Origin: Octopus vulgaris
Lineage: Eukaryota
Assembly: GCA_951406725.2 (NCBI GenBank)
Contig: OX597827.1
Span: 29,884,001 to 29,948,000, forward strand
Direction: 5' to 3'
DNA: 64,000 nt
Shown: positions 2,124 to 63,400 of the stretch, piece after piece
Layout of the letters: every line of letters starts with the position of its first letter
Numbering within the stretch: position 1 is the stretch's first letter
The notes under the pieces: model-generated
The model's database searches: none
What the model was told of the DNA's origin: nothing
Seen by the model: only the letters and a program-made list of their open reading frames with translations
Position numbers and translations under genes: made by a program

Positions 2124-5292
<3,169 letters not shown>

Positions 5293-8858: not shown

Positions 8859-10458
8859 TTAGCGTTGCTCCAAGTGGAGCCTAGATAGTGGACGACCATT
8901 GTGTGGGGCGAGACCAAACACTGAGATGTCATCTGGGGAATGGCTGGCCGAGCGGAAGTGGCGTGCGACGGGAGAAAAAGAGTGTAGGCGAACGTCCCTC
9001 AGATGTTCTGCGAATCGGTCAGACAACCGGCGTCCCGTCTGTCCTACATACCGCATCCCGCATAGGTTGCATTTAATGCAGTATATGAGGCCAGACGAGG
9101 TGCACGTAAAAGAGTGTCTAATACGTACAGTTCGCCGGTTAGAGCCGGTGACAGCAGTGGTGTTGGTGATGAAGGGGCAGGTGTTGCAACGGGATCTAGA
9201 GCACGGGAAAGATCCGTGTGGGGCTGAGGGGGAAGGAGAGAGGGTGCTGTGGACCAGGAGGTCGCGTAGATTCTGGGCTCGTTTGAAGGAGGACAGGTGT
9301 GGGTTGGGGAAAATGGGGCGGGTTGTGGGATCGAGCTGGAGGCGACGGAAAAGGAGGGGGAAGGGTGTGCGGTTGGGGGGGTGAGAGGAAGGTGGTGCGG
9401 TCGATGCGACGGGCGCGGGCGAAGGCATTTGAGATGAGTATAGGTGGGTAACCTCGGAGTCTGAACAGGCGGGCCAGGTATTGAGATTGGGTCTCGAAAT
9501 CCTGGTCGCGGCTGCACAAGCGTCGGTGGCGGAGGAACTGGGAGTTTGGTGTGGAAGGGGTGGGAGGAGGAGAAGTTGAGATAGAGGTGGGAATCCGTGG
9601 GTTTAAAGAAGGCGGTGGTGGTGAGAGAGTGGGAGGGGTGGTCGATTCGGAGAGAGATGTCAAGGAAGTTGACAGAGGTGTTGGAGATGGTTGAGGTGAA
9701 TTGTAGGGAGGGGTGAAAGTTGGAAAGGAAAGAGATGAATTGGCAGAGAATTTCACGGGAAAGGGAGGTGGCACCTATGCAGTCGTTTATATAGCGACCG
9801 TATAGTTCAGGGGTCGGCCTGGAGAATTGGGAGAATACTTGGGCCTCAATGTAGCCAAGAAAGAGATTAGCGAAATTGGGGCCCATTCTAGTTCCCATCG
9901 CGACCCCGGACACCTGTTGGTACGTTTCCCCGGCGAACGTGAAACAGTTGAGGGTTAGAACGAGCTCTGCCAGGCGGAGAAGGGTGGGGGGCGCTGGGGC
10001 TGGGGTCGGGACGACGGTCGAGGAAGTGTTGGAGGGCTAGGAGACCGTCATTGTGGGGAATCACTGGGTACAGGGATTTTACATCTAAAGTGAAGAGGAG
10101 GTGTGAGGGGCTGGAAGGGAAGGAAAAGGAATTGAAGAGACGGAGGGCGTGGTTGGTGTCGTGTATGTGGGATGGGAGGGCTGCGACTAAGGGGGACAGG
10201 ATGCGGTCGAAGTATAGGGAAATGTGTTCAGTGGGGCAATTACAGGCAGAGACTATGGGACGGCCAGGATTATTGGGTTTATGGATCTTGGGAAGGAAAT
10301 AGATGGTGGAGCTGCGGGGTGTGCGGACGATGAGGTTGGTGGCGGTGGGGGGGAGAGCAGTAGAGGAGATGAGGTCGTGGATGGTGGAGGACACACGCTG
10401 TTGGTAGGAGGAGGTGGGATCGGAGGGGAGGAGGCGATAGAAGAGGGGATTTTGAAAT
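8859..10458 (-). pseudogene. PLE reverse transcriptase / GIY-YIG endonuclease, frameshifted
   Basis: YFLPKIHK..GRPIVS, LDVKSLY, GVAMGTRMGP, YGRYIND (YIDD mutated), FLDI, CSRSRCNTC and LIYCIKCNLCGMRYVGQTGRRLSDRFAEH spread across several frames. Confidence 0.92.
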
Positions 10459-10491
10459 ACATATATATATATATATATATTTATATATACA

Positions 10492-10882
10492 TAGAGAGAC
10501 TTAGTAATTTTAATATTTCTATTATTGAAAACAAGTGGATGTATTCCACCGAAGCTAGGTAAATAAAACCTTCGAACAGAGATTGTCAGAAGCGACACCT
10601 ACTGGTCTGGCTACGCTGCATTGAAAAGGGGCAATACCCCGAAACGCGTCTGTAGCTGCCGGTCAAGTAGTGTGGAGCGACTGACCTCCCTTGTTCGAAG
10701 GTTATATGGATACAGTTTGTGTATCAAATAGCTAACTTAAGGCGATGGCCTCATGGAGCTAATAAGCGGACAGCTTTATTCTTATTTTTATAAGAATGCC
10801 ATATTAGTATGGCGATAACTATTATTTTCCGGGAACGCTGCCGTTGTTCTCTTTTAGAGAGACTTAGTAATTTTAATATTTC

Positions 10883-10888
<6 letters not shown>
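10492..10888 (+). mobile_element. Non-coding retrozyme-like element A (period 363 nt, about 1.1 units) with HHR
   Basis: 34-nt direct repeat TAGAGAGACTTAGTAATTTTAATATTTCTATTAT at 10492 and 10855; internal HHR; (TA)n flanks; no ORF. Confidence 0.78.
10615..10656 (+). ncRNA. Minimal type-I hammerhead ribozyme (U3-A8 core variant)
   Basis: GCTGCA-TTGAAAA-GGGG-caata-CCCC-GAAA-CGCGTC/TGTAGC: 6-bp stem I, 4-bp stem II, palindromic ACGCGT stem III, predicted cleavage after 10650. Confidence 0.85.
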
Positions 10889-10941
<53 letters not shown>

Positions 10942-11002
10942 CATATATATATATTTATATATATATATATTTATATATATATATACATATATATATATAT
11001 TT

Positions 11003-11063
<61 letters not shown>

Positions 11064-11097
11064 CATATATATATATTTATATATATATATATATATA

Positions 11098-11694
11098 TAA
11101 GAAATATTGAGTTTCTAAATCTCTCGTAGAGAGGTGTACGGTGGTGGAGCGATATAATGGTTGTATACTGTCAATCTAACAAGAACGTGACAGTAGGGGG
11201 TACACCACCGTTATATAGCCCTAGGAGGCATCGAACGCCTCCTGACAGCTTCGACACATTTTATCCTGTGTCCTTATATACACATACGAAGGGGAGACAA
11301 ACACCCCCAACTGCCGGAACTGCATCTAGGGACACCGTGTTTAAGGATCATTGTCCTTCATCGGCCTAGAATAGCAGACACCGGTCAGCCGGCGATATCT
11401 GTCTCGACTTCGTATCTGTATATATCTATAGTCAGTGAAGTCTATTCACTGATTATCAAAATAAGAAATATTGAGTTTCTAAATCTCTCGTAGAGAGGTG
11501 TACGGTGGTGGAGCGATATAATGGTTGTATACTGTCAATCTAACAAGAACGTGACAGTAGGGGGTACACCACCGTTATATAGCCCTAGGAGGCATCGAAC
11601 GCCTCCTGACAGCTTCGACACATTTTATCCTGTGTCCTTATATACACATACGAAGGGGAGACAAACACCCCCAACTGCCGGAACTGCATCTAGG
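11098..11694 (-). mobile_element. Non-coding retrozyme-like element B (period 364 nt, about 1.64 units) with HHR
   Basis: 11098-11330 is repeated at 11462-11694; HHR at 11325-11370; (TA)n on both sides. Confidence 0.82.
11325..11370 (-). ncRNA. Type-I hammerhead ribozyme motif (U4C, G12U variant)
   Basis: Reverse complement TCTAGG-CCGATGA-AGGA-caatga-TCCT-TAAA-CACGGTGTC/CCTAGA; perfect 6-bp stem I. Confidence 0.8.
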
Positions 11695-11697
11695 AAC

Positions 11698-11756
<59 letters not shown>

Positions 11757-12672: not shown

Positions 12673-13453
12673 TATATATATATGTATATATATATATTGT
12701 TATATTTCGGAATGGTCATTTTGCCAGTTTAGCCAATAAAAGCACACGCACTATATATTTGGTGTTACTTTGCTTCAGTGTTATTTATTTTTTACATTAA
12801 TCTTAATCTTATTTCGGCCAGAGTTCTTTCGTCACACTCCTATGACCGCATCAGTGGTCCTTTGTTTTCTTCTCACTTATTTGTGTCTCTCCTTACTAAC
12901 CGTCAGCCATTGTGTATTTCTATTGTATGTCTTCATTTGCGCATGCTTATATCTCTATGTGCGTTTATGTTTATTTAGTGTGTGTATGTGGGGGATGCCT
13001 ATAATATTTGTATCTTCTGTTTATATATGTTCATGTAATTTGTATTTTGCAGTTTGTTTTTTGTTTTTTGTTTTTGTTTTTGTTTATTCTTATTTTGTTC
13101 ATGTGTTTACATCCACCCATTATTATCATTACATATGCTTGTATGTATGTATGTATGTATGTATGTATAACAACAATACTAGTAATAATAATAATAAATT
13201 GAATCGAAAATATATATATATATATATATACACATATATATATACATATACACACACATATATATATATATAGTTATTTATTTATTTATCTGTGTATTTA
13301 TTATGTTTTCAGGATCCTCTATCGTCATATGTTGTGGTGTGTGTTAGTGCTCCATTCTAGTTTTCTCTATATGTATCTGTATATATATATGTATATATAT
13401 ATGTATATATATGTATATATATATATATGTATATATATATGTATATATATATG

Positions 13454-13487
<34 letters not shown>

Positions 13488-13560
13488 AAATAAATAAATA
13501 AATGACTATATATATATATGTGTGTATATGTATATGTATATATATATATATATGTATATA

Positions 13561-14134
13561 TTGTCATCAAAAAAGGGGGTAGAATTAATTAATTGTTAAT
13601 AAATTCGACCAAGCAGTATTCGGTATGTAAAGACCATTTACAGTATATTTGAAGTATTAATTTATAAAAATATGGTAAAGTACAAAAATTCACTTTACCA
13701 CACACCGAACTTTTCAGAAATAGCAGCCAAAGATTTGGCTATTTCTTCAACTGCAAATAAAAGTCTCCAGACAATGCATACTCAGAAAATAACTCACATA
13801 GGTATAAGGGAAAAACAATGAAAGATCACATCCATATACGATACCCGAGGACAGTCTGTTTCTGGATTTGTGGGTAAAACGCCACTTTTCCTTCATCAGC
13901 TCAGAGATTTCTTCTGATTTAGATTTGAAAATACTAAGAATCAAACATACCCGTCCGATATCTGTAACATCGGACAAACCATGCCAGACACCCAGTACTA
14001 GCGAATCCAATGCATTGTCTGGAGACTTTTATTTGCAGTTGAAGAAATAGCCAAATCTTTGGCTGCTATTTCTGAAAAGTTCGGTGTGTGGTAAAGTGAA
14101 TTTTTTTACTTTACCATATTTTTATAAATTAATA
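13561..14134 (-). mobile_element. HHR-bearing PLE pseudo-LTR/retrozyme with a 125-bp inverted repeat, nested in a TA tract of PLE2
   Basis: Arms 13655-13779 and 14010-14134; HHR 13845-13904 reverse complement CTGAG-CTGATGA-AGGA..TCCA-GAAA-CAGACTGTC/CTCGG. Confidence 0.8.
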
Positions 14135-14244
14135 TATATGTATATATATATATTTTTTTTTCGATTCAATTTATTATTATTATTACTAGTATTGTTGTTA
14201 TACATACATACATACATACAAGCATATGTAATGATAATAATGGG

Positions 14245-16146
14245 ATGATGTGGACAATTGTTCTGGGACCCCAGAAACGTACAGGAAATAATTTCCAAGC
14301 CTGGAACAATGATATCCCGGCACTGTATGGACTTCGCAAGGACCATAAAATAATTACTGACCCTATAGCAGGACCACCAACAAGACCAGTCTGTGGAGCG
14401 AATATCGCTAGCAATTACAGCATCTCCTACTTCCTCTCAATGATCATACGCCCTATAATCCGAATGTCACCTGATGTTTGTGACAGCACAGAAGATCTCC
14501 TCAGCAGGATCGATGACTGTAACAGCACTTGTGACCTGACAGGATGTATGGTGGGTAGCATGGATGTGGTATCCCTATACCCATCGATCGACGTAGATTT
14601 TGCGGTGGAGAAGTGCGTGGAGATGATCAATGAGAGCCAGGTGGAGTTCTGTAATGTCAACACAGAAGAACTGGGCCTCCTACTTAGACTGACATGTAAT
14701 ACTGAATACTTAGATAAACATAATCTTAGTAGTTTCTGCCCCAGTAGATGTTTAAGAGGTAGACCGCCCACAATTACTTCTATGACTAGGAAGACACATA
14801 TAGAAAGATGGCGCGGATGGACCAGAGCCATACGGAGCCCCGCAAATGTCCATCAGATAAAGAAAATGATCGCACATGCACTAGGAGCTAGTATAAGAAT
14901 TACCCTAAAAGGCCACACGTTTAAGTTTAATAATAAAATATATGCCCAGGACAAGGGGGCAGCCATCGGCGTTAGTATCGCTGGTGATGTGGCCAACCTT
15001 TTCATGGTATGGTGGGACAGAAGGCTTAAAGAACGCCTAACACAGAACTCCATACTCGTAAACATGTACTCTCGTTATGTTGATGATATCAACATAGTGG
15101 TAAAGGCACCCCCACAAGAGAGCAATGTTGATATAGTAATAGAAACTAATACTATGGAGAGCATCCAGCAAATAGCTAACTCCATCCACCAGAGTATTAA
15201 GGTCACAATAGACTACCCCACTAAACACCCCAACCATAGACTACCAGTACTAGACACCGAACTCTGGCTAGAAATTGTGAATAATAAAACCCAAATCCTT
15301 TATTCATACTATGCCAAACCTATGGCCTCAAAATACTTGATCCACCGGAACTCAGCCATTGCGGACAATGCCAAATTCAATATTTTGATGGCAGACCTCG
15401 TCAGAATAATGAGAAATGTGTCATGCATGTGCGAGCCCACAGAGTTAAAGAGACACATACAATATTTCATTCACCGCATGCAGTTCTCAGGTTACAGCCA
15501 TAAAGAAAGGATCAGAGTATACAATGGAGCCATTAAGAAATTTGATAATATATTATGTAATGATAGGAATGGTATTTGCCCACTCTATAGGAACAAGTCA
15601 TGGAACACTATAGAAAGGACAAAAAATAAAATAGGGAAGGTCAACTCTTGGTATGATAGCCATAAATACCAGAGTGTCATGTTCGTTGACACCACTCCTG
15701 GAGGTGAACTGGCGTATCGCTTTAGAAGGACCCTAGACAAACTTAAGCTAAGAATTAAGGTTGTTGAAAAGCCAGGCAACCCTATCAAATCTATAATTGG
15801 TAGAACCTATCCTTTTAGTAGAACCCCCTGTACAGATAGGTACTGTACTGTATGTAGATTTAGCCCACAAACAAACTGTAAAGCCAGAAATGTAGTCTAT
15901 AGTATAAGATGTATAGAGGGACGATGCAGTAAGAAGACAACGACATACGTAGGGGAAACGGCAAGAAGCATAGGAGAGCGGGTAAATGGGCATTGGAGAC
16001 AACTCAAAGAAGGTAAAAGCTCATCGATTCTGTACCAACACGCCGAACAAGAACATGGGGATCAATCAATAACAGAGAAATTAAAATATTATCCACACAT
16101 AGATCAGATGCAACAATTAGACAAATTACAGAAGCTACACACATAA
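14245..16146 (+). CDS. PLE reverse transcriptase with C-terminal GIY-YIG endonuclease (5'-truncated, probable frameshift near the C-terminus)
   Basis: LYGLRKDHK, TRPVC, GSMDVVSLYPSI, YAQDKGAAIG, YSRYVDD, LPVLD, CTDRYCTVC and VVYSIRC..YVGETARSIGERVNGH in one frame. Confidence 0.9.
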   Translation: MMWTIVLGPQKRTGNNFQAWNNDIPALYGLRKDHKIITDPIAGPPTRPVCGANIASNYSISYFLSMIIRPIIRMSPDVCDSTEDLLSRIDDCNSTCDLTGCMVGSMDVVSLYPSIDVDFAVEKCVEMINESQVEFCNVNTEELGLLLRLTCNTEYLDKHNLSSFCPSRCLRGRPPTITSMTRKTHIERWRGWTRAIRSPANVHQIKKMIAHALGASIRITLKGHTFKFNNKIYAQDKGAAIGVSIAGDVANLFMVWWDRRLKERLTQNSILVNMYSRYVDDINIVVKAPPQESNVDIVIETNTMESIQQIANSIHQSIKVTIDYPTKHPNHRLPVLDTELWLEIVNNKTQILYSYYAKPMASKYLIHRNSAIADNAKFNILMADLVRIMRNVSCMCEPTELKRHIQYFIHRMQFSGYSHKERIRVYNGAIKKFDNILCNDRNGICPLYRNKSWNTIERTKNKIGKVNSWYDSHKYQSVMFVDTTPGGELAYRFRRTLDKLKLRIKVVEKPGNPIKSIIGRTYPFSRTPCTDRYCTVCRFSPQTNCKARNVVYSIRCIEGRCSKKTTTYVGETARSIGERVNGHWRQLKEGKSSSILYQHAEQEHGDQSITEKLKYYPHIDQMQQLDKLQKLHT

Positions 16147-16263
16147 TAGAAAATAAACCTAGCCTGAATAGAAAACTAGAATGGAGCACTAACACACACC
16201 ACAACATATGACGATAGAGGATCATGAAAACATAATAAATACACAGATAAATAAATAAATAAC

Positions 16264-16326
<63 letters not shown>

Positions 16327-16729
16327 TTTCGATTCAATTTATTATTATTATTACTAGTATTGTTGTTATACATACATACATACATACATACATACATACA
16401 TACATACATACATACATACATACATACATACATACAAGCATATGTAATGATAATAATGGGTGGATGTAAACACATGAACAAAATAAGAATAAAAACAAAA
16501 AACAAAATACAAAATACAAAATACAAATTATATGAACATATAAAATTACAAATTACATGAACATATATAAACAGAAGATACAAATATTACAGGCATCCCC
16601 ACATACACACACTAAATAAACATAAACACACATAGAGATATAAGCATGCGCAAATGAAGACATACAATAGAAATACAAAATGGCTGACGGTTAGTAAGGA
16701 GAGACACAAATAAGTGAGAAGAAAACAAA

Positions 16730-16774
16730 GGACCACTGATGCGGTCACAGGAGTGTGACGAAAGAACTCTGGCC
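16730..16774 (+). ncRNA. Atypical hammerhead motif in the PLE2 pseudo-LTR
   Basis: GGACCA-CTGATGCG-GTCACA-ggag-TGTGAC-GAAA-GAACTC/TGGCC; the same motif occurs in 4 copies (12816, 16730, 53754, 54022). Confidence 0.65.
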
Positions 16775-16950
16775 GAAATAAGATTAAGATTAATGTAAAA
16801 AATAAATAACACTGAAGCAAAGTAACACCAAATATATAGTGCGTGTGCTTTTATTGGCTAAACTGGCAAAATGACCATTCCGAAATATAACAATATCTGT
16901 TTCAACACACGACTTCACATAAAAAATCTTGCACAACAAATATTTAAACG

Positions 16951-17035
<85 letters not shown>

Positions 17036-26032: not shown

Positions 26033-27887
26033 ATGGATAGATTTCTGAAAAAAACGTAAGTTAGATACAGATGAAGAGACGCAGGGTCTGAGGCAGTCTG
26101 TTGAAGCTGCAGCCACTGCCAGTGATGCTGCCTCGTCGAAATTACCAAGAAATGATGGAATTAACCTGCAACTAAAAGTTCGTCAATATTGTGAAAACTA
26201 CATAGCTCTGGGAATGGAAACCCAGACTGCTCTTCACCTTTGTGTACTGTTTCTGGGGAGAAGCTGGCTAATAGTACTATAGCACCAGCCAAGCTGAAAC
26301 GACACTTAACAACTAAACATCCAGAGTTGTCAGGCAAAAAAGAACAATATTTTAAAAGAGAATTGGCATTTAATAAAAGGCAAGTTTGCCAAAAAGTTCA
26401 AGTTGAGTGACAAAGGACAAGAAGCAAGTTATGCTGTGGCGGAGATAGTTGCAAGAAAAATGAAATCTCATACCATCGCTGAAACTGTAATTTTACCTGC
26501 ATGCCAGGAAATAGTGAGGATAATGTTTGGAGAGGATGCTGTATCAGATCTAAATAAAATTCCATTTTCTGACAACATAATAAGTAGGCGCATTCAAGAC
26601 ATGTCAGGAGACATTGAGTGCAATATTAAGTCAAAAATACTGAAACATAAGTTGTTTGCACTTCAAGTTGATGAGAGTACAGACATCACTGGTAAATCAC
26701 AGCTCCTTGTATTCGTTCGTTTTATTAATGATGAAACTATTGTAGAAGACGTCCTGTATTGCAAAGAGTTGCCAGAAACAAGAAAAGGACAAGATGTATT
26801 TGATGTTTTAAATTCATATTTAGAGTATTGTGGATTGAACTGGAAAAACTGTGTTGGTATTTGTACAGATGGTGCCCCTGCAATGACAGGATGTCTTAAA
26901 GGCTTTGTCCCAACCGCACAAAAACAAAATTCAAATGTTTCATTCATAGAGAAGCACTAGTTGCTAAAACTTTTGGACCTGAACAAAAATCTGTATTGGG
27001 TATGGTAGTGAAAATAAATAATTACTTCAAAATGAGGCCACTTAAATGTCGACAGTTTGCGAAACTTTGTGTGGGTATGGAAGCAGACCATTTCACCTTA
27101 ATCCAGCACACAGAAATACGATGGTTGTCAAGGGGAAAAGTATTGTCTCGTTTTTACGAATTAAGAGAAGACCTTTTGACCTTTTGTTTGCAAGAAAACC
27201 TGAAAGACTTTGTAAAATGTTTGAGTGATGACCATCGGTGTTCCAAGTTAGCATATTTTGCCGATATATTTCATGAGCTAAGCCTCTTGAACAATGGCAT
27301 GCAGGGCATGAACGAAAATATATTGTCTTCTACTGACAAAATAAATGCTTTTCAGAAGAAATTGACAATATGGAAGAAACACATAGCTGCAGGAAATTTG
27401 GAAATGTTTCTAAGTGTTTTTAAAAGGAATTGTCAAGAAACTTCGTTACTGATTTTGAACCATTTGCACACTTTGTTAACAAATCTTGACAAATATTTTC
27501 CATCGATATCTGTTGACCAGTATGACTGGATTAGAAACTCATTTGTGGAATTTGAGCCATTTGAAGAACAGTTCACATTATCAGAAGAAGAAGAACTTGC
27601 TAGTGTTTTAAATGACAGAACTTTAAAGTTGAAGCATTCTGAGCTTCACCTGAATGCATTTTGGTTGCTGGTTGAAAAGGAATATCCTGCAAACGCCCAG
27701 AAAGCGCTGCGACTTCTTGTGCAGTTTTCAACCACCTACTTCTGTGAATTTGGATTTTCAACTCTGACAGCCATCAAGCACAAGAAGCGAGCACAATTGC
27801 TGTCTGTGGAAGATGAACTTCGTGTGTGTCTATCGACCCAATCTTAGGGAGTTGTGCAAGAAACACCAGGCTCAAGTTTCTCATTGA
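26033..27887 (+). pseudogene. hAT transposase (ZBED5/SCAND3/Buster-like), frameshifted
   Basis: BED remnant [51 protein letters not shown]-terminal QAQVSH. Confidence 0.92.
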
Positions 27888-37109: not shown

Positions 37110-39947
37110 TTATGTGGTGTCATTCATTCTCAACTTCCGTGCTACATCCTTCCATCGTTCTTCATACACTCTTTTAGTCAGGCATTTTCTCTCCAGCCCT
37201 ATCTTCCTTTTCAGGTGGTAGATGAAGTAATTCATCAATCCAGGGCCGGATATGAACTTGCCTGACCGTATACCTTTCATTCTCGTCTTCCATATCACCT
37301 CTTTCGCAATTGCTACCACAACGAGAAAACAATTCTTACCTTCTTTCGCGAGGAAATCTGGTGGGTCAATTTTTTTAATACACTCAGTCGACAGCTGTAC
37401 TCTTCGTGTGCTTGACAACAGCTGTTCGGCATAAACCCACACCTCAGACACGACCGAACAATGAACAATAGCGTGCGGGACGGTTTCCCTATCCCGCCCG
37501 CATCTTGGACACATCGGACTGTCTTGGCCACCGTGCCTTGCGAGTTTATCCCGAACAGGTAGAGCTCCTCTGTAGCATTGCCATGCCAGAGACTTCTGGA
37601 AGTTGTCCAGTGTCTTCGGCTCGAACGTACGTCGGAACAGACTGGCCAGCTGATTATCGTCGAGACCCAGGGTTTCCCCCAAGGTGTCTTCACATTTCGC
37701 CTCTACCAACCCTCTATAGAAGAATGTGGTGGAACCCCCACCGCAGGCGTTGCCCGAGCGACGGAATAGCAGGAGAGCCTTGCGACACTCCGTATACCAT
37801 GTGCCCAGTTTCGATCTACGATTCAACCAGGTTTCCCATCCACCGAAACTAGTGAACTTGGGAAACATCCGTTCTGCTAGCGAAGACCACACCCGTTCAC
37901 CATCCAGGTAGAGCCACAGATGTCTTAACCTCAGCGCATGTTTGCGCATCAACAGCCAAGGCATCCCTAGCCCACCCTTTAACGGTTGTTGACAGCAAGT
38001 AGAGCGTTTCACAAGTGGTTTCCCGCCCTTCCACAGGAAGTAGAAGAGCTGTCTTTCCAACTTGGTCAACCACGAATCAGGGCATGGAACGACGGAAAGG
38101 CGGTAGGTGATAACCGATGCGATAAACACATTGGCCACCTCCGCCCTCCCTTTCAAGGATAGCCACCGCCAAGACCAGGTCTTGGCTACTGCAGCCACCT
38201 TGCTCGTTACCTCGCCCCAATTCTTCTCTATTTGGAGGTCTGGACCGAACCAGACCCCTAGCAGTTTAATCGGACCCTCCGTCCAACGTCCCACGACGCT
38301 GTCAGGAGGCATCGACTTGCCTCTCCAGGTGCCGAGTTGCAAGCCGACTGACTTTTCGCGATTAACTTTTGCTCCTGTCACCGTCTCGTAATCCTCTATG
38401 GCCTTGCCTACTTTACATAGGTGGTCCATTTCGGTCACGATGATGGTGATGTCGTCCGCGTACGCTGACACTGATTTTCCATTACCTGGCTGTCTCGGGA
38501 TGCCGCTCAGTTTTCGCAGTAATGGCTCAAGAGCCATTACGTACAAAAGCGGGGAGAGCGGACACCCTTGACGAACCGAGCGTTTGATTTTGAACGGCTT
38601 CGACAAGAAGCCGTTCACCCGAACTACCGAGTCGATGTTGTCGTAAATTTGGATAATCCACCTGAGGAAGCCAAGGCTCAGCCCGAACTGTGCCAGGGCA
38701 GACACCAGGTAACGATGGTCGACCCTATCAAAAGCTTTGGATTGGTCTAAATGGACCAGTGCCCCACCCTTGCCAGAATCACTATTAAACCCCTCTATAG
38801 TGTACCGCATTAGATGGAGATTATCCTGAATGGTTCTGCCCGGAACGGCACATGTCTGTGCCTCCCCGATCAGACCATCCGCGACACGCGCCAATCTTTT
38901 CGATAACACTTTGGCCAAAATCTTCAACTCTGTGTTTAGCAGAGTGATGGGCCTGAAATTATCAATGCACTCCCCCTTGCTCGAGTCCTTTCTGACGAGA
39001 GTCACCACTCCCCGGCGCACAGATCTGGGTATAAGCCCGTTCTGCTGCCAGTTCGCATAGACCTCCGCCAGTAGGTGCCCGAACAAGTCTGGCATACTCT
39101 TATATAACTCGTAGGGTAGACCATCCAAACCCGGCGCCTTGCCCGCGCCGCAGTCCGCCATTGCCTCCACCACCTCCTCAGGCGTGATTGGCCCTTCACA
39201 GCCCTCCGCATCTCGCCCCGATAAGTGCGGCAGCCCGTCGAGTAGGTCCGTAAAGGCCCTCCTCCTATCCAGCCCGCCGCACTCACCGAAAAGCTGAGCG
39301 AAGTGCTCCTGAAAGGCCTCACACATCTCCTCGGGTTCGTCTATCAACTCACCTTGTTGGTTCTTCAAAGATCGAATCGTGGCATCGTTGCCATTCCGGG
39401 CTTCCACCACTCGGGCCCATCTCACGGCGTTGATTCCCTCACATCCCATATGACGGATTCTAGCCCTGACAATGCAGCCCATGTGTTTGGCCTCGAGGTG
39501 CTGGTTTAACACCAGTCTCTTGGCCGCCACCTGAGCCTCAGAGTCAGTTTTCATGGCTTCCTCTAATTCCTTAACTAGAGTAGTTTCCCTTCTAGCCTCT
39601 CTAGACACTACTCCTATGCTATATCTAATAGACTCAAACTTGATGGCTCGTTTGAGGGCGTACCACCATTTGTTATTAATGATGGCACCAGACAGCGCCC
39701 TCTGAATTATGGTCCTAATCCGGTCTCTGTACTCCTTAATCGCCAAAAGGGACGTATTAAGTTTCCAGTAACCGGATCCTCTATTTCTAACCTTATCTAT
39801 GTCAAGCTTACAAGTGACCATTTTATGATCACTGTAGCTGATCGGGTAAAACTGTGGACACTTAGCTATTTTACTGTCTACCTTTCTAATTAGAATTCTA
39901 TCTATGTATGACCTGGAAGATCCGTCGCTGTTTGACCATGTCCACAA
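37110..39947 (-). CDS. Tx1/L1 ORF2: C-terminal part of APE endonuclease, RT and C-terminal Cys/His finger (5'-truncated, otherwise open)
   Basis: SYIDRIL, YSDHK, GYWKLN, KAPGLDG, NFRPITLLN, LDQSKAFDRV, RQGCPLSP, AYADD, CPRC..ETVPHAIVHC. Confidence 0.93.
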   Translation of the reverse strand: MWTWSNSDGSSRSYIDRILIRKVDSKIAKCPQFYPISYSDHKMVTCKLDIDKVRNRGSGYWKLNTSLLAIKEYRDRIRTIIQRALSGAIINNKWWYALKRAIKFESIRYSIGVVSREARRETTLVKELEEAMKTDSEAQVAAKRLVLNQHLEAKHMGCIVRARIRHMGCEGINAVRWARVVEARNGNDATIRSLKNQQGELIDEPEEMCEAFQEHFAQLFGECGGLDRRRAFTDLLDGLPHLSGRDAEGCEGPITPEEVVEAMADCGAGKAPGLDGLPYELYKSMPDLFGHLLAEVYANWQQNGLIPRSVRRGVVTLVRKDSSKGECIDNFRPITLLNTELKILAKVLSKRLARVADGLIGEAQTCAVPGRTIQDNLHLMRYTIEGFNSDSGKGGALVHLDQSKAFDRVDHRYLVSALAQFGLSLGFLRWIIQIYDNIDSVVRVNGFLSKPFKIKRSVRQGCPLSPLLYVMALEPLLRKLSGIPRQPGNGKSVSAYADDITIIVTEMDHLCKVGKAIEDYETVTGAKVNREKSVGLQLGTWRGKSMPPDSVVGRWTEGPIKLLGVWFGPDLQIEKNWGEVTSKVAAVAKTWSWRWLSLKGRAEVANVFIASVITYRLSVVPCPDSWLTKLERQLFYFLWKGGKPLVKRSTCCQQPLKGGLGMPWLLMRKHALRLRHLWLYLDGERVWSSLAERMFPKFTSFGGWETWLNRRSKLGTWYTECRKALLLFRRSGNACGGGSTTFFYRGLVEAKCEDTLGETLGLDDNQLASLFRRTFEPKTLDNFQKSLAWQCYRGALPVRDKLARHGGQDSPMCPRCGRDRETVPHAIVHCSVVSEVWVYAEQLLSSTRRVQLSTECIKKIDPPDFLAKEGKNCFLVVVAIAKEVIWKTRMKGIRSGKFISGPGLMNYFIYHLKRKIGLERKCLTKRVYEERWKDVARKLRMNDTT

Positions 39948-40290
39948 TGGAGGAGGAGGGATTATGGCAGGGCCAGATTATCACAATGGCAATACAAGCG
40001 GAGGCCCAGACACTGGAGGAAATACCAGAGGTGCTGAGGCTCGATGAGGAGGAGAGAGTACTGGTATTTGTAGAAGGAAGAAAACCGAGGTGCTTCGGCT
40101 GCGGAAAAAAGGGACACGTAAGAGCGGAGTGTCAACCTAAACCGCAGGTAGAAGCACCGTCGGAAAAAGAAGAAGCGGAGAAGAAAAAGAAAACAGAGGA
40201 AACCAAAGAGGTGGAAAAATCTGCAAGTGGTGCAGAAAAGGAAAAAGAAAACGAAAAAGAGGAGGGGTGGTCTAAAGTTACCCAAAAAAA
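39948..40290 (+). pseudogene. Inverted Tx1 ORF1 (gag-like) fragment with CCHC zinc knuckle
   Basis: EGRKPRCFGCGKKGHVRAEC, lying inside the TSD pair. Confidence 0.85.
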
Positions 40291-44889: not shown

Positions 44890-49829
<4,940 letters not shown>

Positions 49830-50177: not shown

Positions 50178-51476
50178 ATATATATCCGGTTCCGTTTTGC
50201 TGTTTAACTCAGCTCCTACAACACTATCACTGGGTGCTGAAACGGCTGCTCAACCACTCAAATGTGGAAGTGATATATCTCGACTTTGCAAAGGCCCTTG
50301 ATAAAGTCGATCATGGAATGATATGTCACAAACTGCGTGATCTCAACATAGTTGGAAAACTGGGAGAATGGCTTCATGACTTTCTGAAGGATAGAAGTCA
50401 GGTGGTAGTAGCCAATGGGGCCACCTCCATTAACACACAAATAGTGAGCGGTGTTCCGCAGGGCACTGTTCTGGGACCACTACTGTTCATAATGGCCCTC
50501 TCAGACATGCCCTCAGCCACGCAAAGAGCCACGATCACAAGTTATGCAGATGATACAAAAGTTTCACAGGCAATACAGAACCCTGAAGACACTAAGCACC
50601 TGCAATGTGAGCTGGACGAAATATACAAGTGGGCTGAAAAGAATAGCATGCAGTTCAATGCTGGAAAGTTTCAAGCTTTATACTATCAGCATGCAAAACT
50701 GAATGCAATACCTAATGAATACACTGGACCCGGAGGGATTGCAATCCCAGAGGCACAATCAGTGCGTGACCTGGGTATTCACATGAGTGATGACGCGACC
50801 TTTCATGTACATGCTGCTAAACTGACAATGAAATGTAGACGGCTGGCTGGATGGATTCTTAGAACCTTTAGAACAAAAGAACAAGAAACCATGATGGTCC
50901 TCTGGAAGACACTTGTCCTAAGCCACTTTGACTATTGCTCTCAGCTATGGTCACCATCCAGTGTCAAGTTGATCACAGAACTTGAGGCGATCCAACGAAG
51001 CTACACAAAGAAGATAGCCTCTATGCAGAATGTAAGCTACTGGGAAAGACTCAAGAGATTAAAATTATATTCCCTGGAGCGTAGGCGGGAAAGATATGCC
51101 ATAATATACATCTGGAAGATCCTGGAGGGAAGTGTCCTGAACTTTGGCATCGAGAGTTACGCAAATGCCAGAACTGGGCGCCACTGCGTGGTGCCTAGGA
51201 CTCCAAACCTGCCATCAAGGTGTAGGACAAGATTCTGTGATAGCCTGGGCTTCCGAGGCCCACAGCTCTTCAATATCCTCCCGAAGAACCTGAGAGACCT
51301 GCATGGGGTGGATACAGATGTCTTTAAAATGAAGCTGGATCTCTTCCTGTCAGGTGTCCCAGATGAACCAACTTCACGGCAGGAGGGGCAGATGAGGGCA
51401 GCTGCATCGAACTCTCTCATGCACCAAATAGCAGTTGCTAGAAAGCCTCCATGAAGTGAAACCAAGTAGCAACACT
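50178..51476 (+). mobile_element. Near-identical duplicate of the 3' half of the upstream CR1, lacking the terminal tail
   Basis: The ORF at 50087-51454 matches the C-terminal ~420 aa of 46708-49698 with few substitutions. Confidence 0.92.
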
Positions 51477-53274: not shown

Positions 53275-54324
<1,050 letters not shown>

Positions 54325-54328
<4 letters not shown>

Positions 54329-55980
54329 GAATAACTTAGAAAGGTTTTGGGCCAGTATTGGCCCAGGCCATGTCTAACTTAATAGCACCACCTGGCGAAG
54401 TCTTTCAGTTCAGGATTTGGGCACCAAGGCCCATTCGAGCAGAGAGTTATTGTTTGCGGAGACATATCCGGGTGTGGGTGGTTTGTCCGGTACTGTTTGA
54501 AGGAATTTGTCCAAAGACTTCTTGAATTTTGTGTGGTCAGTTTCTTTTTTGACGTGTCCTGGTGTAATGTTGAAGAGAGCGGGTCCAATTGAGGTGAAAT
54601 AGTTGTGCCGTATTGTCGTTATGTGATGCGATTTAGATTTTTGTTGTGGACGGATGGCACGTGGTCCAAGCCTTGGATGCATTTTGAAGGTGATGCCAAC
54701 ATCATTCGGACAGTGCTGATGGAATATTTTCCACATCATAGAGATAATGTAGCGTTCACGGCGTCGTTGGAGTGAATACAATTTCAGCTTCTCTAGTCTA
54801 CCCCAGTAGTCAAGGTCTGACATGCCATCTATCTTTTTTGTGATTGACCTTTGGGGAGCTTCAATTCTCATAATATTTTGTTTTGTGTAGGGAGAGCACA
54901 GTGGACAGCAGTATTCAAGGTGGGGTCGGGCAAAAGTGGAGAAGAGAAGGATAATAGCGTGGGAATCTCTCGACTGGAAGGTTCTGAGAATCCAGGAACA
55001 CATTCTGCGGGCCATGTCAACTTTGCTGCTTATATGTGTAGCCCAGCTTATGTTGTTGTCCACTGTTACTCCCAGGTCTCTGATGTTGTTGGATGCCATG
55101 AGAATTTCTCCAGAAGGAAGAGAGTATGGGAGTTTCAGAGCGTCCTCCCTTCTAAAGTGGATCAGTTCGAATTTGTCTTCATTTAGCAACATGTTATTCT
55201 TTTCCGCCCATTGGACAACAGCCAGTAGGTCTGACTGAAGGTTTATTCGGTCATCCACGCCATTGATGACCTTCTGGAGCTTGGAATCATCAGCGAAGGT
55301 TCTGATGTTACTGTGTTTGATGGTGTCAGTAATATCATTTATGTAGATGATGAAGAGAAGTGGGCCCAACACAGTGCCTTGTGGGACACCACTGCTGACT
55401 TTGGTTGGGCTGGATTTGACTCCTTCGACTACAACATGTTGGGTTCTGTTAGACAGGAAGCACTTGATCCATTGCAGCAGCTTTCCAGTGACACCAATAT
55501 TGGACAGCTTTCTCAGAAGGATCTTATGATCAACCCTGTCAAAGGCCTTGCTGAAATCAAGGTAGATGACATCAGTGTTGAAACCTTCTCCCAAGGCTCT
55601 CAAAATGTCATCAAAATGATGCAGTAGCTGCGTCAGGCAATCTCTCCCATTACGGAATCCATGCTGGTTGGGGTTCAGCATATTATGACTCTCAAGGAAG
55701 TGAGTCATACGCGATCTCAGCACCCTCTCAAATACCTTGATGATATGAGAGGTGAGTGAGATTGGACGGTAATTCACGGCAAGCGATTTGTTTCCTTTTT
55801 GAAAACTGGGACAACAGACTGGGATAGAAGGTCTTCTGGTATATATCCAGCATCCAGTGAGTTCCGCCACAGATTGGCTCGAGGGGGTGCAAGTTGGTTT
55901 TGACACATCTTCAACACACAAGCAGGGAACCTATCGGGACCTACTGCTGAATTATGCTTCATTTCCTTTATTGCTGCTAT
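54325..55980 (-). mobile_element. CR1-group LINE family B, RT plus 3' end (ORF 54410-55921)
   Basis: [47 protein letters not shown]. Confidence 0.93.
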
Positions 55981-60428
<4,448 letters not shown>

Positions 60429-63400
60429 TCTTTACTTTTACTTTTACTTTACTTTTTCTAGTTTGAGCTCATGAGCTGTGGCCATGCTGGGGCACCGCCA
60501 TTTGGTGTTGCTACTTGGTTTTACTTCACGAAAGCTTTTTAGCAACTGCCATTTGGTGCATGAGAGAGTTCGATGCAGCTGCCCTCATCTGCACCTCCTG
60601 CCGTGAAGTTGGTTCATCTGGGACACCTGACAGGAAGAGATCCAGTTCCATTTTAAAGACATCTGCATCCACCCCATGCAGGTCTCTCAGGTTCTTCGGG
60701 AGGATATTGAAGAGCTGTGGGCCACGGAACCCCAGGCTATCACAGTATCTTGTCCTACATCTTGACGGCAAATCTGGAGTCCTAGGCACCACGCAGTGGC
60801 CCCAGTTCTGGCATTTGTGTAACTCTCGATGCCAAAGTTTGGGACACGTCTCTCCAGGATCTTCCAGATGTATATTATGGCATATCTTTCCCGCCTACGC
60901 TCCAAGGAATATAGTTTTAATCTCTTGAGTCTTTCCCAGTAGCTTACATTCTGCATAGAGGCTATCTTCTTCGTGTAGCTACGCTGGATCGCCTCGAGCT
61001 CTGTGATCAACTTGACACTGGATGGTGACCATAACTGAGAGCAATAGTCAAAGTGGCTTAGGACAAGTGTCCTCCAGAGGACCATCATGGTTTCTTGTTC
61101 TCTTGTTCTAAAGGTTCTGAGAATCCATCCGGCCAGTCGTCTACATTTCATTGCCAATTTAGCAACATGAACACGAAAGGTTGCGTCATCGCTCATGTAA
61201 ATACCCAGGTCACGCACTGATTGTGCCTCTTGGATTGCTATTCCTCCCGGTCCAGTGTATTCATTGGGTATTGCATTTAGTTTTGCATGCTGATAGTATA
61301 AAGCTTGAAACTTTTCAGCATTGAACTGCATGCTATTCTTTTCAGCCCACTTGTATATTTCGTCCAGCTCACATTGCAGGTGCTTAGTGTCTTCAGGGTT
61401 CTGTATTGCCTGTGAAACTTTTGTATCATCTGCATAACTTGTGATCGTAGCTCTCTGCGTGTCTGAGGGCATGTCTGAGAGGGCTATTATGAACAGTAGT
61501 GGTCCCAAAACAGTGCCCTGCGGAACACCGCTCACTATTTGTGTGTTAATGGAAGTGGCCACCTGACTTCTATTCTTCAGAAAGTCATGAAGCCATTCTC
61601 CCAATTTTCCAACTATGCCAAGATCACGCAGTTTGTGACATATCATTCCATGATCGACTTTATCAAAGGCCTTTGCAAAGTCGAGATATATGACTTCCAC
61701 ATTTGAGTGGTTGAGCAGTTGTTTCAGCACCCAGTCATAGTGCTGCAGGAGCTGAGTTAAGCAGCTTCTTCCTGGTCGCAAACCATGTTGGGTGTCAGGC
61801 AGCAAGTCATTTTCTTCAAGGAAGGTGATTAGTTTCCTTCTGACTATTCGTTCCATGACCTTGCTGATGTGTGAGGTCAGAGAGATAGGTCTGTAGTTCT
61901 TGGCCTCTGCTCTGCTACCACCTTTATGAATAGGGCATATTTTACCTTCCTTCAGTTTTTTTGGAAGTTTGCCAGCTGCTAGGTTTGCCGGGAATCCATC
62001 GGGGCCAATAGCTGATTCTGTTTTCATTTCATCTATGGCCTTTATTACATCGTCTTCCTTTATATCGATGTAATTTATCGTCGCCGCCTCTGATTTTATA
62101 TCTGCAGTGGTAAAGAAGTCAGTTGGATTGGTGATTTGGAAATGCCCGAGGGGTGGAGTGAAAACACTCTTGAATTGCTCATTCAGTATTTCACTTACCC
62201 TCATTGGTTTTCCTGTGAGTGTGCCATCCTCTTCAAGGAGTGGCCCTATCCTACAGTGCACCGTAGCTGTTTCTTTGGCATACCTGTAGAAAGCTCTGGG
62301 GTTAGATTTTATGTTGTCTATAGCCCAGGCTTCTTTGTCTGCTCTTTCCTTTTCATGGGAGAGTTGCAGACATTTTTCAATTTCCAACAGTTTTATTTTC
62401 AGGCGGGACTTTTCACTGCTTTCAATCTGTTTGTTTAGGCGATTTGAAATTTTTGTACGCTGTCTCATTAAGATTTTCCTCTCTCTGGGGATTTTGTTCT
62501 TGTGTACAGTGGCCTTTCTCTCTGGGACACATTTGTAGCATATGGCTTGCGTTACAGACATGAATTGTTGAAGTTTCACGTCGATGTCTGGCGAGGAGTG
62601 ACATTTAGGCCAGTTTTGTTTGAGGATCTCTTTCTCAATTTGTTTCCAGTTTGCCTTATGGTAGTTCAAGCTGGAAAGATTCTGAGGTTTCTTGTAGGCT
62701 GCATGTCCGTGCTCTCTTTTGGCCCGTACATGGTCAGCTCTACCATGTTGTGATCCGAGAGTAGTGTCGGTGTCACTTTCACATTATGGATGAGATCCAT
62801 ATTATTTGTGACTTATTAGAACTTCTATTTTTATAAGGCAGTCTTCAAACTTGCCCACATGGCTTGGGGCATCTGGAGGGCAATATGTAGCACACACAAC
62901 TACATCAAGTTGCCTAATATGTACAATTAGTGTGTCACACAACGAGTTTGAGTATGACAAGAGGACCTGGGGTGTGAGGTCCTCACGGATGTACATAGCT
63001 ACTCCTCCATGACTCCTTTCTTTTCTGTCGGTCCGTAGTACAACATACTGTGGTATGTGTAACTCCGCATCTGCTATGTCCGGTTTCAGGTGCGTTTCTG
63101 TAAGTGCTATGCATAAGGCTTGATTGCATGCAACAAAGTCTCTCAAGAATGGGATCTTTGTCCTGTTACTGAGTGTTTGCAGCCCTCTGATGTTCAGTAG
63201 GAGCATCGAGGTGAGGTGTATGTTGTTGCCGGCGGTGTCCATCCTGGGTCTGTTTGCTGTGGTTGTCTTGTATATAGTGGGTAGTGCCACCTGCGGGCTT
63301 GGGTTTGATGAAGCCAGGTCAGCTGCTGTACAATCTTTTGTGCCAAGCACAAAAAAGATTGCTGCTCAGCAGCTGCCCTTTCAACAATATCATGTTTGCG

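What the first reader, a model, noticed from the sequence alone, without database searches (positions are those of the whole stretch)
10492..11694. Tail-to-tail pair of distantly related 363/364-nt hammerhead retrozyme-like elements with shared 3' motif and covarying structure
Seen: element A (+, period 363) and element B (-, period 364) are ORF-less tandem units, each with one type-I HHR, and both 3' ends point into the same (TA)n tract. Primary sequence is diverged but the architecture matches. The cleavage site lies about 238 nt (A) and 233 nt (B) from the 3' end. Terminal motifs are GAGAGACTTAGTAATTTTAATATTTCTATTAT (A) and GAGAGATTTAGAAACTCAATATTTCTTAT (B). Compensatory helices sit in equivalent places: GATACA/TGTATC vs GACACA/TGTGTC, AGGC/GCCT in both, and a long-range pair around the HHR (CTTCGAACA/TGTTCGAAG vs ATACGAAG/CTTCGTAT). 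Established: metazoan non-LTR retrozymes are short tandem HHR repeats that yield circular RNAs and are thought to use PLE machinery. Inference: this is a structurally conserved, TA-targeting retrozyme superfamily whose 3' motif is the RT recognition or priming signal. I do not recall such a family being described.
Basis: partly seen in the sequence, partly recalled or inferred. Interest (0 to 1): 0.87.

Follow-up and report, generated by a model that had tools for sequence, protein, structure and literature searches.

The report
Three-lineage hammerhead retrozyme superfamily, Penelope-pasted
Two short non-coding repeats that sit tail to tail in a TA microsatellite are young copies of two distantly related lineages of a thousands-strong family that keeps one predicted RNA fold around a hammerhead motif; they are likely parasites of a known kind (retrozymes), likely copied from RNA circles by a Penelope-type transposon enzyme, and self-cutting and circles are untested.

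Summary
Observation largely confirmed. A (1.09 units of 363 nt) and B (1.65 units of 364 nt) are homologous (58% identity, z=12). Their shared 3' motif occurs 3,487 times in the genome (control 0). Three lineages (A, B, C; 54-61% identical) keep one fold: 30 of 58 pairs change on both sides, against 4-9 when slid. Hammerhead cores differ by lineage (U3/A8, U4C, canonical); the window's B copy carries a private G12U and is probably dead. Insertions end at two fixed sites 54-63 nt apart, both next to (TA)n; 66 of 84 two-ended insertions use one of each: the Penelope 'tail'. Inherited variants are in all units of an array (24 of 26), which points to repeated copying of one monomer. No unit was found as the pLTR of a coding element. 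An intact 1,312-aa Penelope-like family has the same 56-nt two-end geometry and is the best candidate driver, without sequence similarity. The tail-to-tail pairing is incidental co-targeting. Class known (non-LTR retrozymes); this scan noted such elements, TA targeting and tail included, on other DNA before. RNA evidence is lacking. New member of a known kind; interest 0.4.

The parts
10492..10888 (+). Element A insertion: 34-nt 3' fragment (10492-10525) plus one full 363-nt unit (10526-10888); identical to the majority of 35 near-full A units
10570..10700 (+). A: long rod (outer arms 10570-10578 / 10692-10700) that extends hammerhead stem I
   Evidence: predicted fold; inner part covaries
10615..10656 (+). 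A: type I hammerhead motif, U3/A8 core, palindromic stem III/loop 3, predicted cut after 10650
   Evidence: (U3 and A8 in 45 of 45 copies)
10709..10761 (+). A: two hairpins shared by all lineages (10709-10725 and 10729-10761)
10766..10844 (+). A: multibranch domain; inner 3' end E2 (10825) lies in its single-stranded loop
   Evidence: (6 of 7 closing pairs change on both sides)
10846..10888 (+). A: terminal hairpin and shared 3' motif; outer 3' end E1 at 10888, finishing in TAT
10889..11096 (.). (TA)n tract, the shared target into which both 3' ends point
11097..11694 (-). Element B insertion: full 364-nt unit (11460-11097) preceded by a 234-nt partial unit (11694-11461) whose 5' end is exactly the hammerhead cut site
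11097..11137 (-). B: terminal hairpin and shared 3' motif; E1 at 11097
11138..11211 (-). B: multibranch domain with E2 (11152) in an AC-rich single-stranded loop
11325..11370 (-). B: type I hammerhead motif; lineage-wide U4C (11363), private G12U (11343); predicted cut after 11331
   Evidence: (C4 in 37 of 39; G12U in 1 of 39)
11695..11700 (-). Short extra piece at B's 5' junction, a repeat of unit positions just downstream of the cut site
8859..10459 (-). Neighbour, not part of A: 5'-truncated, decayed Penelope-like RT + GIY-YIG fragment (pyrimidine-rich Neptune-type family, 'NepY'), head to head with A across a short TA tract
12686..16952 (+). Neighbour: 5'-truncated copy, with an inverted arm (12686-13288), of the Penelope-like family whose intact copies encode 1,312 aa; candidate driver

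Best explanation
A and B are young, separately inserted copies of two lineages of a ~360-nt non-coding repeat superfamily, likely non-autonomous retrozymes whose folded RNA is likely copied into (TA)n tracts by a Penelope-like RT-endonuclease. Shown by sequence: a conserved covarying fold, a hammerhead motif at one homologous place, two fixed 3' ends (E1, E2) next to TA, head-to-head inverted arms that pair one E1 with one E2, random 5' truncation, arms that run through the cut site and past one unit, and arrays whose units share inherited variants. Inferred mechanism: the few loci with two whole ribozymes are transcribed; the ribozymes (probably as dimers, through the palindromic stem III) cut out a monomer that is ligated to a circle; a PLE protein binds the 3' multibranch domain, nicks both strands of a TA tract, and primes one cDNA at E1 and one at E2 using a 3-5 nt TAT match; RT goes round the circle, stops at random, and the two cDNAs join by microhomology. 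The most likely driver among the families I sampled is the 1,312-aa PLE. The tail-to-tail pair arose because B and A landed in the same TA tract.
For: Homology and fold. Abundance: 3,487 motif matches, control 0. Ends: E1+E2 in 66 of 84 two-ended insertions, E1+E1 1, E2+E2 0, 17 with an end elsewhere (p=5e-11 for 1 vs 66); TA run next to 87 of 131 E1 and 51 of 78 E2 ends against 6% background; 52 of 86 inversion junctions overlap by 1-6 nt. The tail equals the distance between two RT start sites in vitro (PMC11167929). Monomer step: non-CpG variants seen in 3 or more insertions are in all units in 24 of 26 cases, private ones in 8 of 91; a 5.5-unit array shares 10 substitutions across units and has 2 unit-specific ones; only 3 of 99 arms hold two whole ribozymes, so linear copying alone would shrink arrays. 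Driver: two TA-abutting ends 56 nt apart and E1+E2 in 6 of 6 two-ended copies; a closing helix at the same distance from E1 (0 of 150 shuffles). Coral, mussel and axolotl retrozymes give circles (PMC7229834).
Against: No RNA, cleavage or circle was shown. Both young lineages have variant cores; U4C lowers activity in vitro (PMC3088659), the active fold costs 5-8 kcal/mol in the monomer, and 8 of 9 frog retrozyme dimers did not cleave in vitro (Li 2026). In the anole PLE, ribozyme cleavage was not needed for insertion (PMC11167929). Variants seen in exactly two insertions are split (10 in all units, 14 in some), and homogeneous master arrays or local tandem expansion could mimic a circle. The 3' domain has no significant sequence likeness to any sampled PLE end (p 0.08-0.94); the helix test was set up after seeing that fold, and NepY also scored (5 of 150). 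Three same-strand junctions join retrozyme pieces to NepY, none to the 1,312-aa family. Covariation rests on three or four deep lineages and no tree-aware test was run. Samples are biased to E1-bearing or full-length copies.
Confidence: 0.7

Rival explanations
1. Same PLE-driven insertion, but from linear uncut read-through transcripts of a few homogeneous master arrays; the hammerhead is a passenger or is used for something else and no circle is needed.
For: 5' ends do not gather at the cut site (1 exact, 6 within 8 nt, of 226; genome-wide pattern gave 4 matches, 2 true truncations). [quoted passage not shown] Autonomous PLEs form tandems too (PMC8557442).
Against: New variants end up in every unit of arrays (24 of 26; 10 shared in the 5.5-unit array), which needs a one-unit bottleneck; unit length stays 354-367 nt over ten subfamilies; all six stem I pairs change on both sides, so the ribozyme fold is under selection.
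Confidence: 0.2
2. The driver is another PLE: the pyrimidine-rich Neptune-type family next to A (NepY), or an unsampled clade such as a Naiad.
For: Three same-strand junctions of retrozyme pieces to 5'-truncated NepY, one with a 2-nt overlap inside the unit (L120), in L053, L098, L120. NepY is young and abundant. Naiads prefer (TA)n and have tails (PMC8557442); I did not sample them.
Against: NepY shows one 3' end (36 copies) and no second end or matching inverted arm in 30 loci; two of the three junctions are complete E1+E2 insertions beside which NepY could simply have landed. The 781-aa family has a 31-nt tail; Naiad tails are given as 30-40 bp.
Confidence: 0.3
3. The units are solo pseudo-LTRs (5'-truncated ends) of an autonomous PLE that I did not sample, not independent elements.
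For: Same end structure as PLE insertions; frog retrozymes are related to pLTRs (Li 2026); the window itself holds a pLTR-only inverted insertion of the 1,312-aa family (53627-54244). One 32-nt C fragment lies 1.56 kb downstream of a decayed endonuclease (L104).
Against: Arms longer than one unit continue into the previous unit, not into an ORF (20 of 99 arms); none of 147 insertions shows a recurring ORF-to-unit arrangement; 19 relatives of the L104 endonuclease lack the motif downstream; no frame over 98 codons.
Confidence: 0.07
4. The tail-to-tail A-B pair is a functional or co-mobilised compound element.
For: The two 3' ends are 208 nt apart, far closer than a uniform spread of about 2,500 insertions would give (my estimate).
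Against: The pair occurs only at this locus among the 60 best-hit loci; near-identical A copies lie alone; other mixed neighbours occur in other combinations and orientations (L088, L197, L014); shared TA targeting explains the closeness.
Confidence: 0.02

Closest known systems
Metazoan non-LTR retrozymes (Cervera and de la Pena 2020, PMC7229834; Li, Clavereau and Pollet 2026, 10.64898/2026.07.22.740005)
   Same: Short ORF-less head-to-tail repeats with one type I hammerhead per unit, highly self-paired, thousands of copies, size like the mussel's 350-390 bp, co-resident with PLEs.
   Different: Circles and cleavage were shown there, not here. In the parts I read, no two-end tail, inverted E1+E2 arms, TA targeting or covariation between lineages at 55-60% identity is reported. 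Frog retrozymes often resemble pLTRs in sequence; these resemble none of the PLE ends sampled. Most copies here are under one unit.
Penelope-like elements, pLTR and tail (Frangieh 2024, PMC11167929; Arkhipova 2013, PMC3846280; Craig 2021, PMC8557442)
   Same: Partial tandems, head-to-head inverted 5'-truncated arm, optional tail at one end, AT-rich or (TA)n targets, both strands primed, start site in an AC-rich stem-loop, hammerhead upstream of the start sites.
   Different: No ORF; tail 54-63 nt instead of 30-40; both ends finish in a short TAT match to the target, whereas the anole element started at sites not homologous to the cut DNA.
Variant hammerhead cores: U3-A8 of Cercyon PLEs (PMC4209133) and U4C of a viroid (PMC3088659)
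   Same: Identical core changes; palindromic short stem III suited to dimer cleavage.
   Different: Here the variants are fixed in sister lineages of one repeat superfamily, beside a canonical third lineage, with a long stable stem I.
Non-autonomous Chlamys elements such as MRC1 (Craig 2021)
   Same: Non-coding PLE dependants with head-to-tail multicopy insertions.
   Different: Those share 3' sequence with their autonomous partners and Chlamys mostly lack hammerheads.

Membership tests
Non-LTR retrozyme | Short (about 150-450 bp) head-to-tail repeat unit | tested here: met
   Units 354-367 nt; arms up to 5.5 units, 20 of 99 over one unit in the motif-selected sample
Non-LTR retrozyme | One type I hammerhead motif per unit | tested here: met
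   Descriptor scan and alignments; variant cores in A and B, canonical in C; not detected by Rfam models; window B copy has G12U
Non-LTR retrozyme | No protein-coding capacity, not attached to a coding body | tested here: met
   Frames of 46-98 codons; no recurring link to six PLE proteins in 147 insertions; sample, not whole genome
Non-LTR retrozyme | Highly self-paired RNA structure | tested here: met
   Fold z -6.7 to -9.5; covariation
Non-LTR retrozyme | Self-cleavage of the transcript | not testable with these tools
   Needs in vitro transcription
Non-LTR retrozyme | Expressed as monomeric linear and circular RNA | tested here: inconclusive
   Only assembled contigs of uncertain type were available; indirect sign of a monomer step
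PLE-mobilised element | Optional 3' tail from two fixed RT start sites | tested here: met
   E1 and E2 54-63 nt apart in all three lineages
PLE-mobilised element | Partial tandem plus head-to-head inverted 5'-truncated arm | tested here: met
   84 of 147 insertions are two-ended; 86 inversion junctions
PLE-mobilised element | Microsatellite or AT-rich target | tested here: met
   138 of 209 E1/E2 ends next to a TA run of 8 or more; background 6%
PLE-mobilised element | Terminal sequence shared with an autonomous partner | tested here: not met
   No significant alignment to the ends of three PLE families or profile hit in PLE loci; only geometry matches; other clades unsampled
Autonomous PLE pseudo-LTR | Repeat flanks an RT + GIY-YIG ORF and overlaps its start | tested here: not met

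The most novel reading that the evidence does not exclude
These retrozymes are long-lived viroid-like RNA circles that evolve under selection on their whole fold and hijack one co-resident Penelope-like family by structural mimicry alone: their 3' multibranch domain copies the shape and the ~56-nt two-start-site geometry of that element's RT initiation domain with no sequence likeness, and the enzyme reverse-transcribes the circle by rolling from both sites, one per target strand. The covarying domain would then be a ready-made map of the cis element that PLE reverse transcriptases recognise.
Probability: 0.3. Interest if true: 0.7.

Novelty: new member of a known kind. Interest (0 to 1): 0.4.

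Why it matters
How animal retrozymes are put back into genomes, and what RNA element a Penelope RT recognises, are open questions; Li 2026 says the mechanism remains to be worked out. This family offers insertion-level evidence for PLE mobilisation (tail, one start site per strand), a covariation-backed model of the domain holding both start sites, three natural ribozyme cores in one scaffold, and an intact candidate enzyme, so the published in vitro PLE assay could test it directly. The locus itself is ordinary: two of thousands of copies, one with a dead ribozyme.

Tried and rejected
Rfam scans found no hammerhead; the motifs were found with a relaxed descriptor. Expression: no RNA holder listed; contigs of four runs guessed to be RNA covered A in pieces but cannot show strand, ends or level; neither is evidence for or against. 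Presence of B in other organisms' runs was left untested. 5' ends defined by ribozyme cleavage: rejected as a rule; the exact match in the window's B copy is 1 of 226, and its G12U has no second copy that could be a source. Candidate autonomous parents suggested by motif spacing of about 2.5 kb (L091, L092) were local duplications or separate insertions without ORFs. The L104 endonuclease link was not repeated in relatives. Hits of the NepY query to B (residues 1-25) are an artefact of a query that began inside B3 and were ignored; hits labelled N216, N228, Pen178 lie mostly in flanking repeats included in those references and were ignored. A coding remnant in the tail was considered and dropped: subfamilies differ by non-triplet indels. 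Sequence homology of the 3' domain to PLE ends: not significant. Covariation in the 1,312-aa family's own helix: too few diverged copies to judge. A covariance model was not built: the 3'-domain alignment was out of register for B. The motif was not found in the one held supplement of Craig 2021, which may lack the consensus sequences. Supplements of the Li 2026 preprint are closed. Literature searches found no paper on this family; repeat databases could not be searched, so it may already be catalogued there.

Full report
1. The observation. The window holds element A at 10492-10888 (+), a 34-nt exact repeat at period 363, and element B at 11097-11694 (-), a 234-nt exact repeat at period 364. 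Their 3' ends face one TA tract. A relaxed descriptor finds a type I hammerhead in each; Rfam finds none. A has a U3/A8 core in 45 of 45 copies read; B has C at position 4 in 37 of 39. The window's B copy also has G12U, which occurs once in the genome; G12 is a consensus core base (PMC3088659, passages) and, from recall, the general base, so this copy is probably inactive. Each locus has a single ribozyme motif.

2. A and B are homologous. Their majority sequences align end to end at 58% (227 of 389 columns), z=12 against 500 dinucleotide shuffles, and the middle and 5' parts are significant alone (0 of 500). Both fold far below shuffles (z -6.7 and -8.2 linear; -7.8 and -9.5 circular) into one layout: a small hairpin, a long rod capped by the hammerhead, two hairpins, a multibranch domain and a terminal hairpin.

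3. The family. The window lies in a 2.8-Gb animal genome; my guess of a cephalopod rests on recall and was not tested. A and B searches gave 1,501 and 2,228 first-look candidates, 40 scored each, with full-length hits 90-100% identical. A pattern for the shared motif gives 3,487 exact matches and 0 for the reversed control; by my hand count the first 100 form about 73 clusters, so roughly 2,500 insertions carry the exact motif. I fetched loci around about 70 of the first 100 matches as a motif-selected sample and 30 of 34 matches of a second pattern. From 276 fragments I derived subfamilies A, A2-A5 (82-92% to each other), B, B2-B4 (87-95%), C (older, copies 89% to their consensus, canonical core) and a weakly supported D; lineages are 53-69% identical and units stay 354-367 nt. 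Twenty public runs of ten studies and six organism labels hold A or much of it.

4. Covariation. RNAalifold on 16 genomic units predicts 64 pairs, 29 with changes on both sides, covariation term -9.06. After I dropped 11 pairs (a misfold of the ribozyme core and two terminal helices) and added the 5-pair terminal hairpin, 58 pairs are 93.9% paired with 30 double changes; 0 of 500 column shuffles reach this and slid partners give 4-9. The ten consensus sequences give 30 of 58 against 2-7, and A, B and C alone 25 against 1-5. All six stem I pairs and six of seven closing pairs of the multibranch domain change on both sides; the terminal hairpin has none. Caveats: the structure came from the same alignment, relatedness is not modelled, and the count of further pair types was not above shuffles (491 of 500).

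5. Insertion anatomy. Of 147 unique insertions, 84 have two outward-facing 3' ends. Ends fall at two sites: E1 (unit end) and E2, 63 nt (A), 55 nt (B) or 54 nt (C) upstream. Pairings are E1+E2 66, E1+E1 1, E2+E2 0, and 17 with an end elsewhere; the sample is biased to E1-bearing copies, but 1 against 66 is still p=5e-11 under independent choice. TA runs adjoin 87 of 131 E1 and 51 of 78 E2 ends, against 6% of 2,460 random positions; 52 of 86 inversion junctions overlap by 1-6 nt. Both ends finish in TAT running into TA. E2 lies in the single-stranded loop of the multibranch domain, E1 about 40 nt past its closing helix. This is the PLE tail, which Frangieh 2024 (PMC11167929, parts 1-2 of 4 read) mapped to two RT start sites, with both target strands cut and extended; inverted arms with the tail at one end are described in PMC3846280 and PMC8557442 (passages).

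6. Template. 5' ends are spread along the unit: 1 of 226 is exactly at the cut site (the window's B) and 6 within 8 nt; a genome-wide pattern gave 4 matches, 2 true truncations. RT therefore reads through the site. In the motif-selected sample 20 of 99 arms exceed one unit and only 3 hold two whole ribozymes. Among youngest-subfamily insertions (39 A, 26 B), non-CpG variants seen in three or more insertions are in every unit, both arms included, in 24 of 26 cases; private ones in 8 of 91; those seen twice in 10 of 24; CpG variants seen three or more times in 4 of 8. A 5.5-unit array shares 10 substitutions across its units with 2 unit-specific ones. This requires a one-unit bottleneck followed by repeated copying; a circle is the simplest cause, homogeneous masters or local expansion the alternatives. 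The active ribozyme fold costs 5.4-7.6 kcal/mol in a monomer, and the palindromic stem III can pair between two units (-8.9 to -10.7), as proposed for animal hammerheads (PMC4209133, part 1 of 4 read).

7. Partner. No unit was found as a pLTR. I sampled four PLE groups. The family with intact 1,312-aa frames, one copy of which lies 1-5 kb from B, ends at two TA-abutting sites 56 nt apart (25 and 15 copies) and pairs them E1+E2 in 6 of 6 two-ended copies. Its end region folds a closing helix at the same distance from E1 (score 9.6, 0 of 150 shuffles; retrozymes 5.5-9.0, 1-9 of 150; NepY 6.6, 5 of 150; 781-aa family 4.3, 15 of 150), a test defined after seeing that fold. Sequence similarity is not significant for any family. 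NepY has one end (36 copies) but three same-strand junctions with retrozyme pieces. The 781-aa family has a U3/A8 ribozyme and a 31-nt tail. Naiads were not sampled. I put the 1,312-aa family at about 0.45 as driver.

8. The pair. A with B occurs only here among the 60 best-hit loci; other mixed neighbours within 350 nt are L088 (A4/B4), L197 (B2/C) and L014 (A/A2). Shared targeting of TA tracts explains it.

9. Known and new. Non-LTR retrozymes, their circles and the proposed PLE dependence are described by Cervera and de la Pena 2020 (PMC7229834; passages and parts 2-3 of 6 read) and Li 2026 (10.64898/2026.07.22.740005; parts 1-3 of 5 read; supplements closed). The variant cores are known (PMC4209133; PMC3088659, passages). 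Seven searches found no paper on this family, on covariation across retrozyme lineages or on the tail in retrozymes; repeat databases were out of reach. This scan's earlier notes list 12 findings of the kind in at least 3 genomes, with TA targeting, U3/A8 and the two ends; none matched this sequence. I had reached my reading before seeing them. Verdict: a real, well-supported new member of a known kind; what it adds is the cross-lineage structural model and a testable driver. Interest 0.4.

Noticed in passing
window 12686-16952; L151-L162: Young, abundant Penelope-like family with intact 1,310-1,312-aa frames, a long asparagine-rich insert, a minimal hammerhead with an A9C-type core, a 56-nt tail and inverted arms; targets (TA)n.
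   Followed up: partly
window 53627-54244: pLTR-only inverted insertion of the same family (98-99% identical), without coding body.
   Followed up: no
window 8859-10459 (-); L098, L111, L247-L288: Pyrimidine-rich Neptune-type family with many long open frames (up to about 1,200 codons), a minimal hammerhead with a changed position 6, and one 3' end only in the copies seen; unusual for a PLE.
   Followed up: partly
L120:732-1949, L098:1-2287, L053:1982-2858: Direct same-strand junctions between retrozyme pieces and 5'-truncated NepY; possible template switches.
   Followed up: partly
L217-L242: Neptune-type family with intact 781-aa frames, a U3/A8 hammerhead with palindromic stem III and two ends 31 nt apart.
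   Followed up: partly
window 11694-11700: B's 5' end coincides exactly with the hammerhead cut site and carries a short duplicated piece; 1 of 226 ends does so.
   Followed up: yes
window 2490-5240, 46694-49790, 50199-51454, 54410-55930, 57046-62783: Several apurinic-endonuclease LINE copies also bounded by long (TA)n tracts, some near intact; one interrupts or is interrupted by TA expansions.
   Followed up: no
window 26310-27847: Frameshifted transposase-like coding stretch (hAT-like by recall), and a 955-codon LINE frame at 37110-39977 (-).
   Followed up: no
L066:412-2411: 5.5-unit A array whose units share 10 substitutions; a possible source locus with several whole ribozymes.
   Followed up: partly
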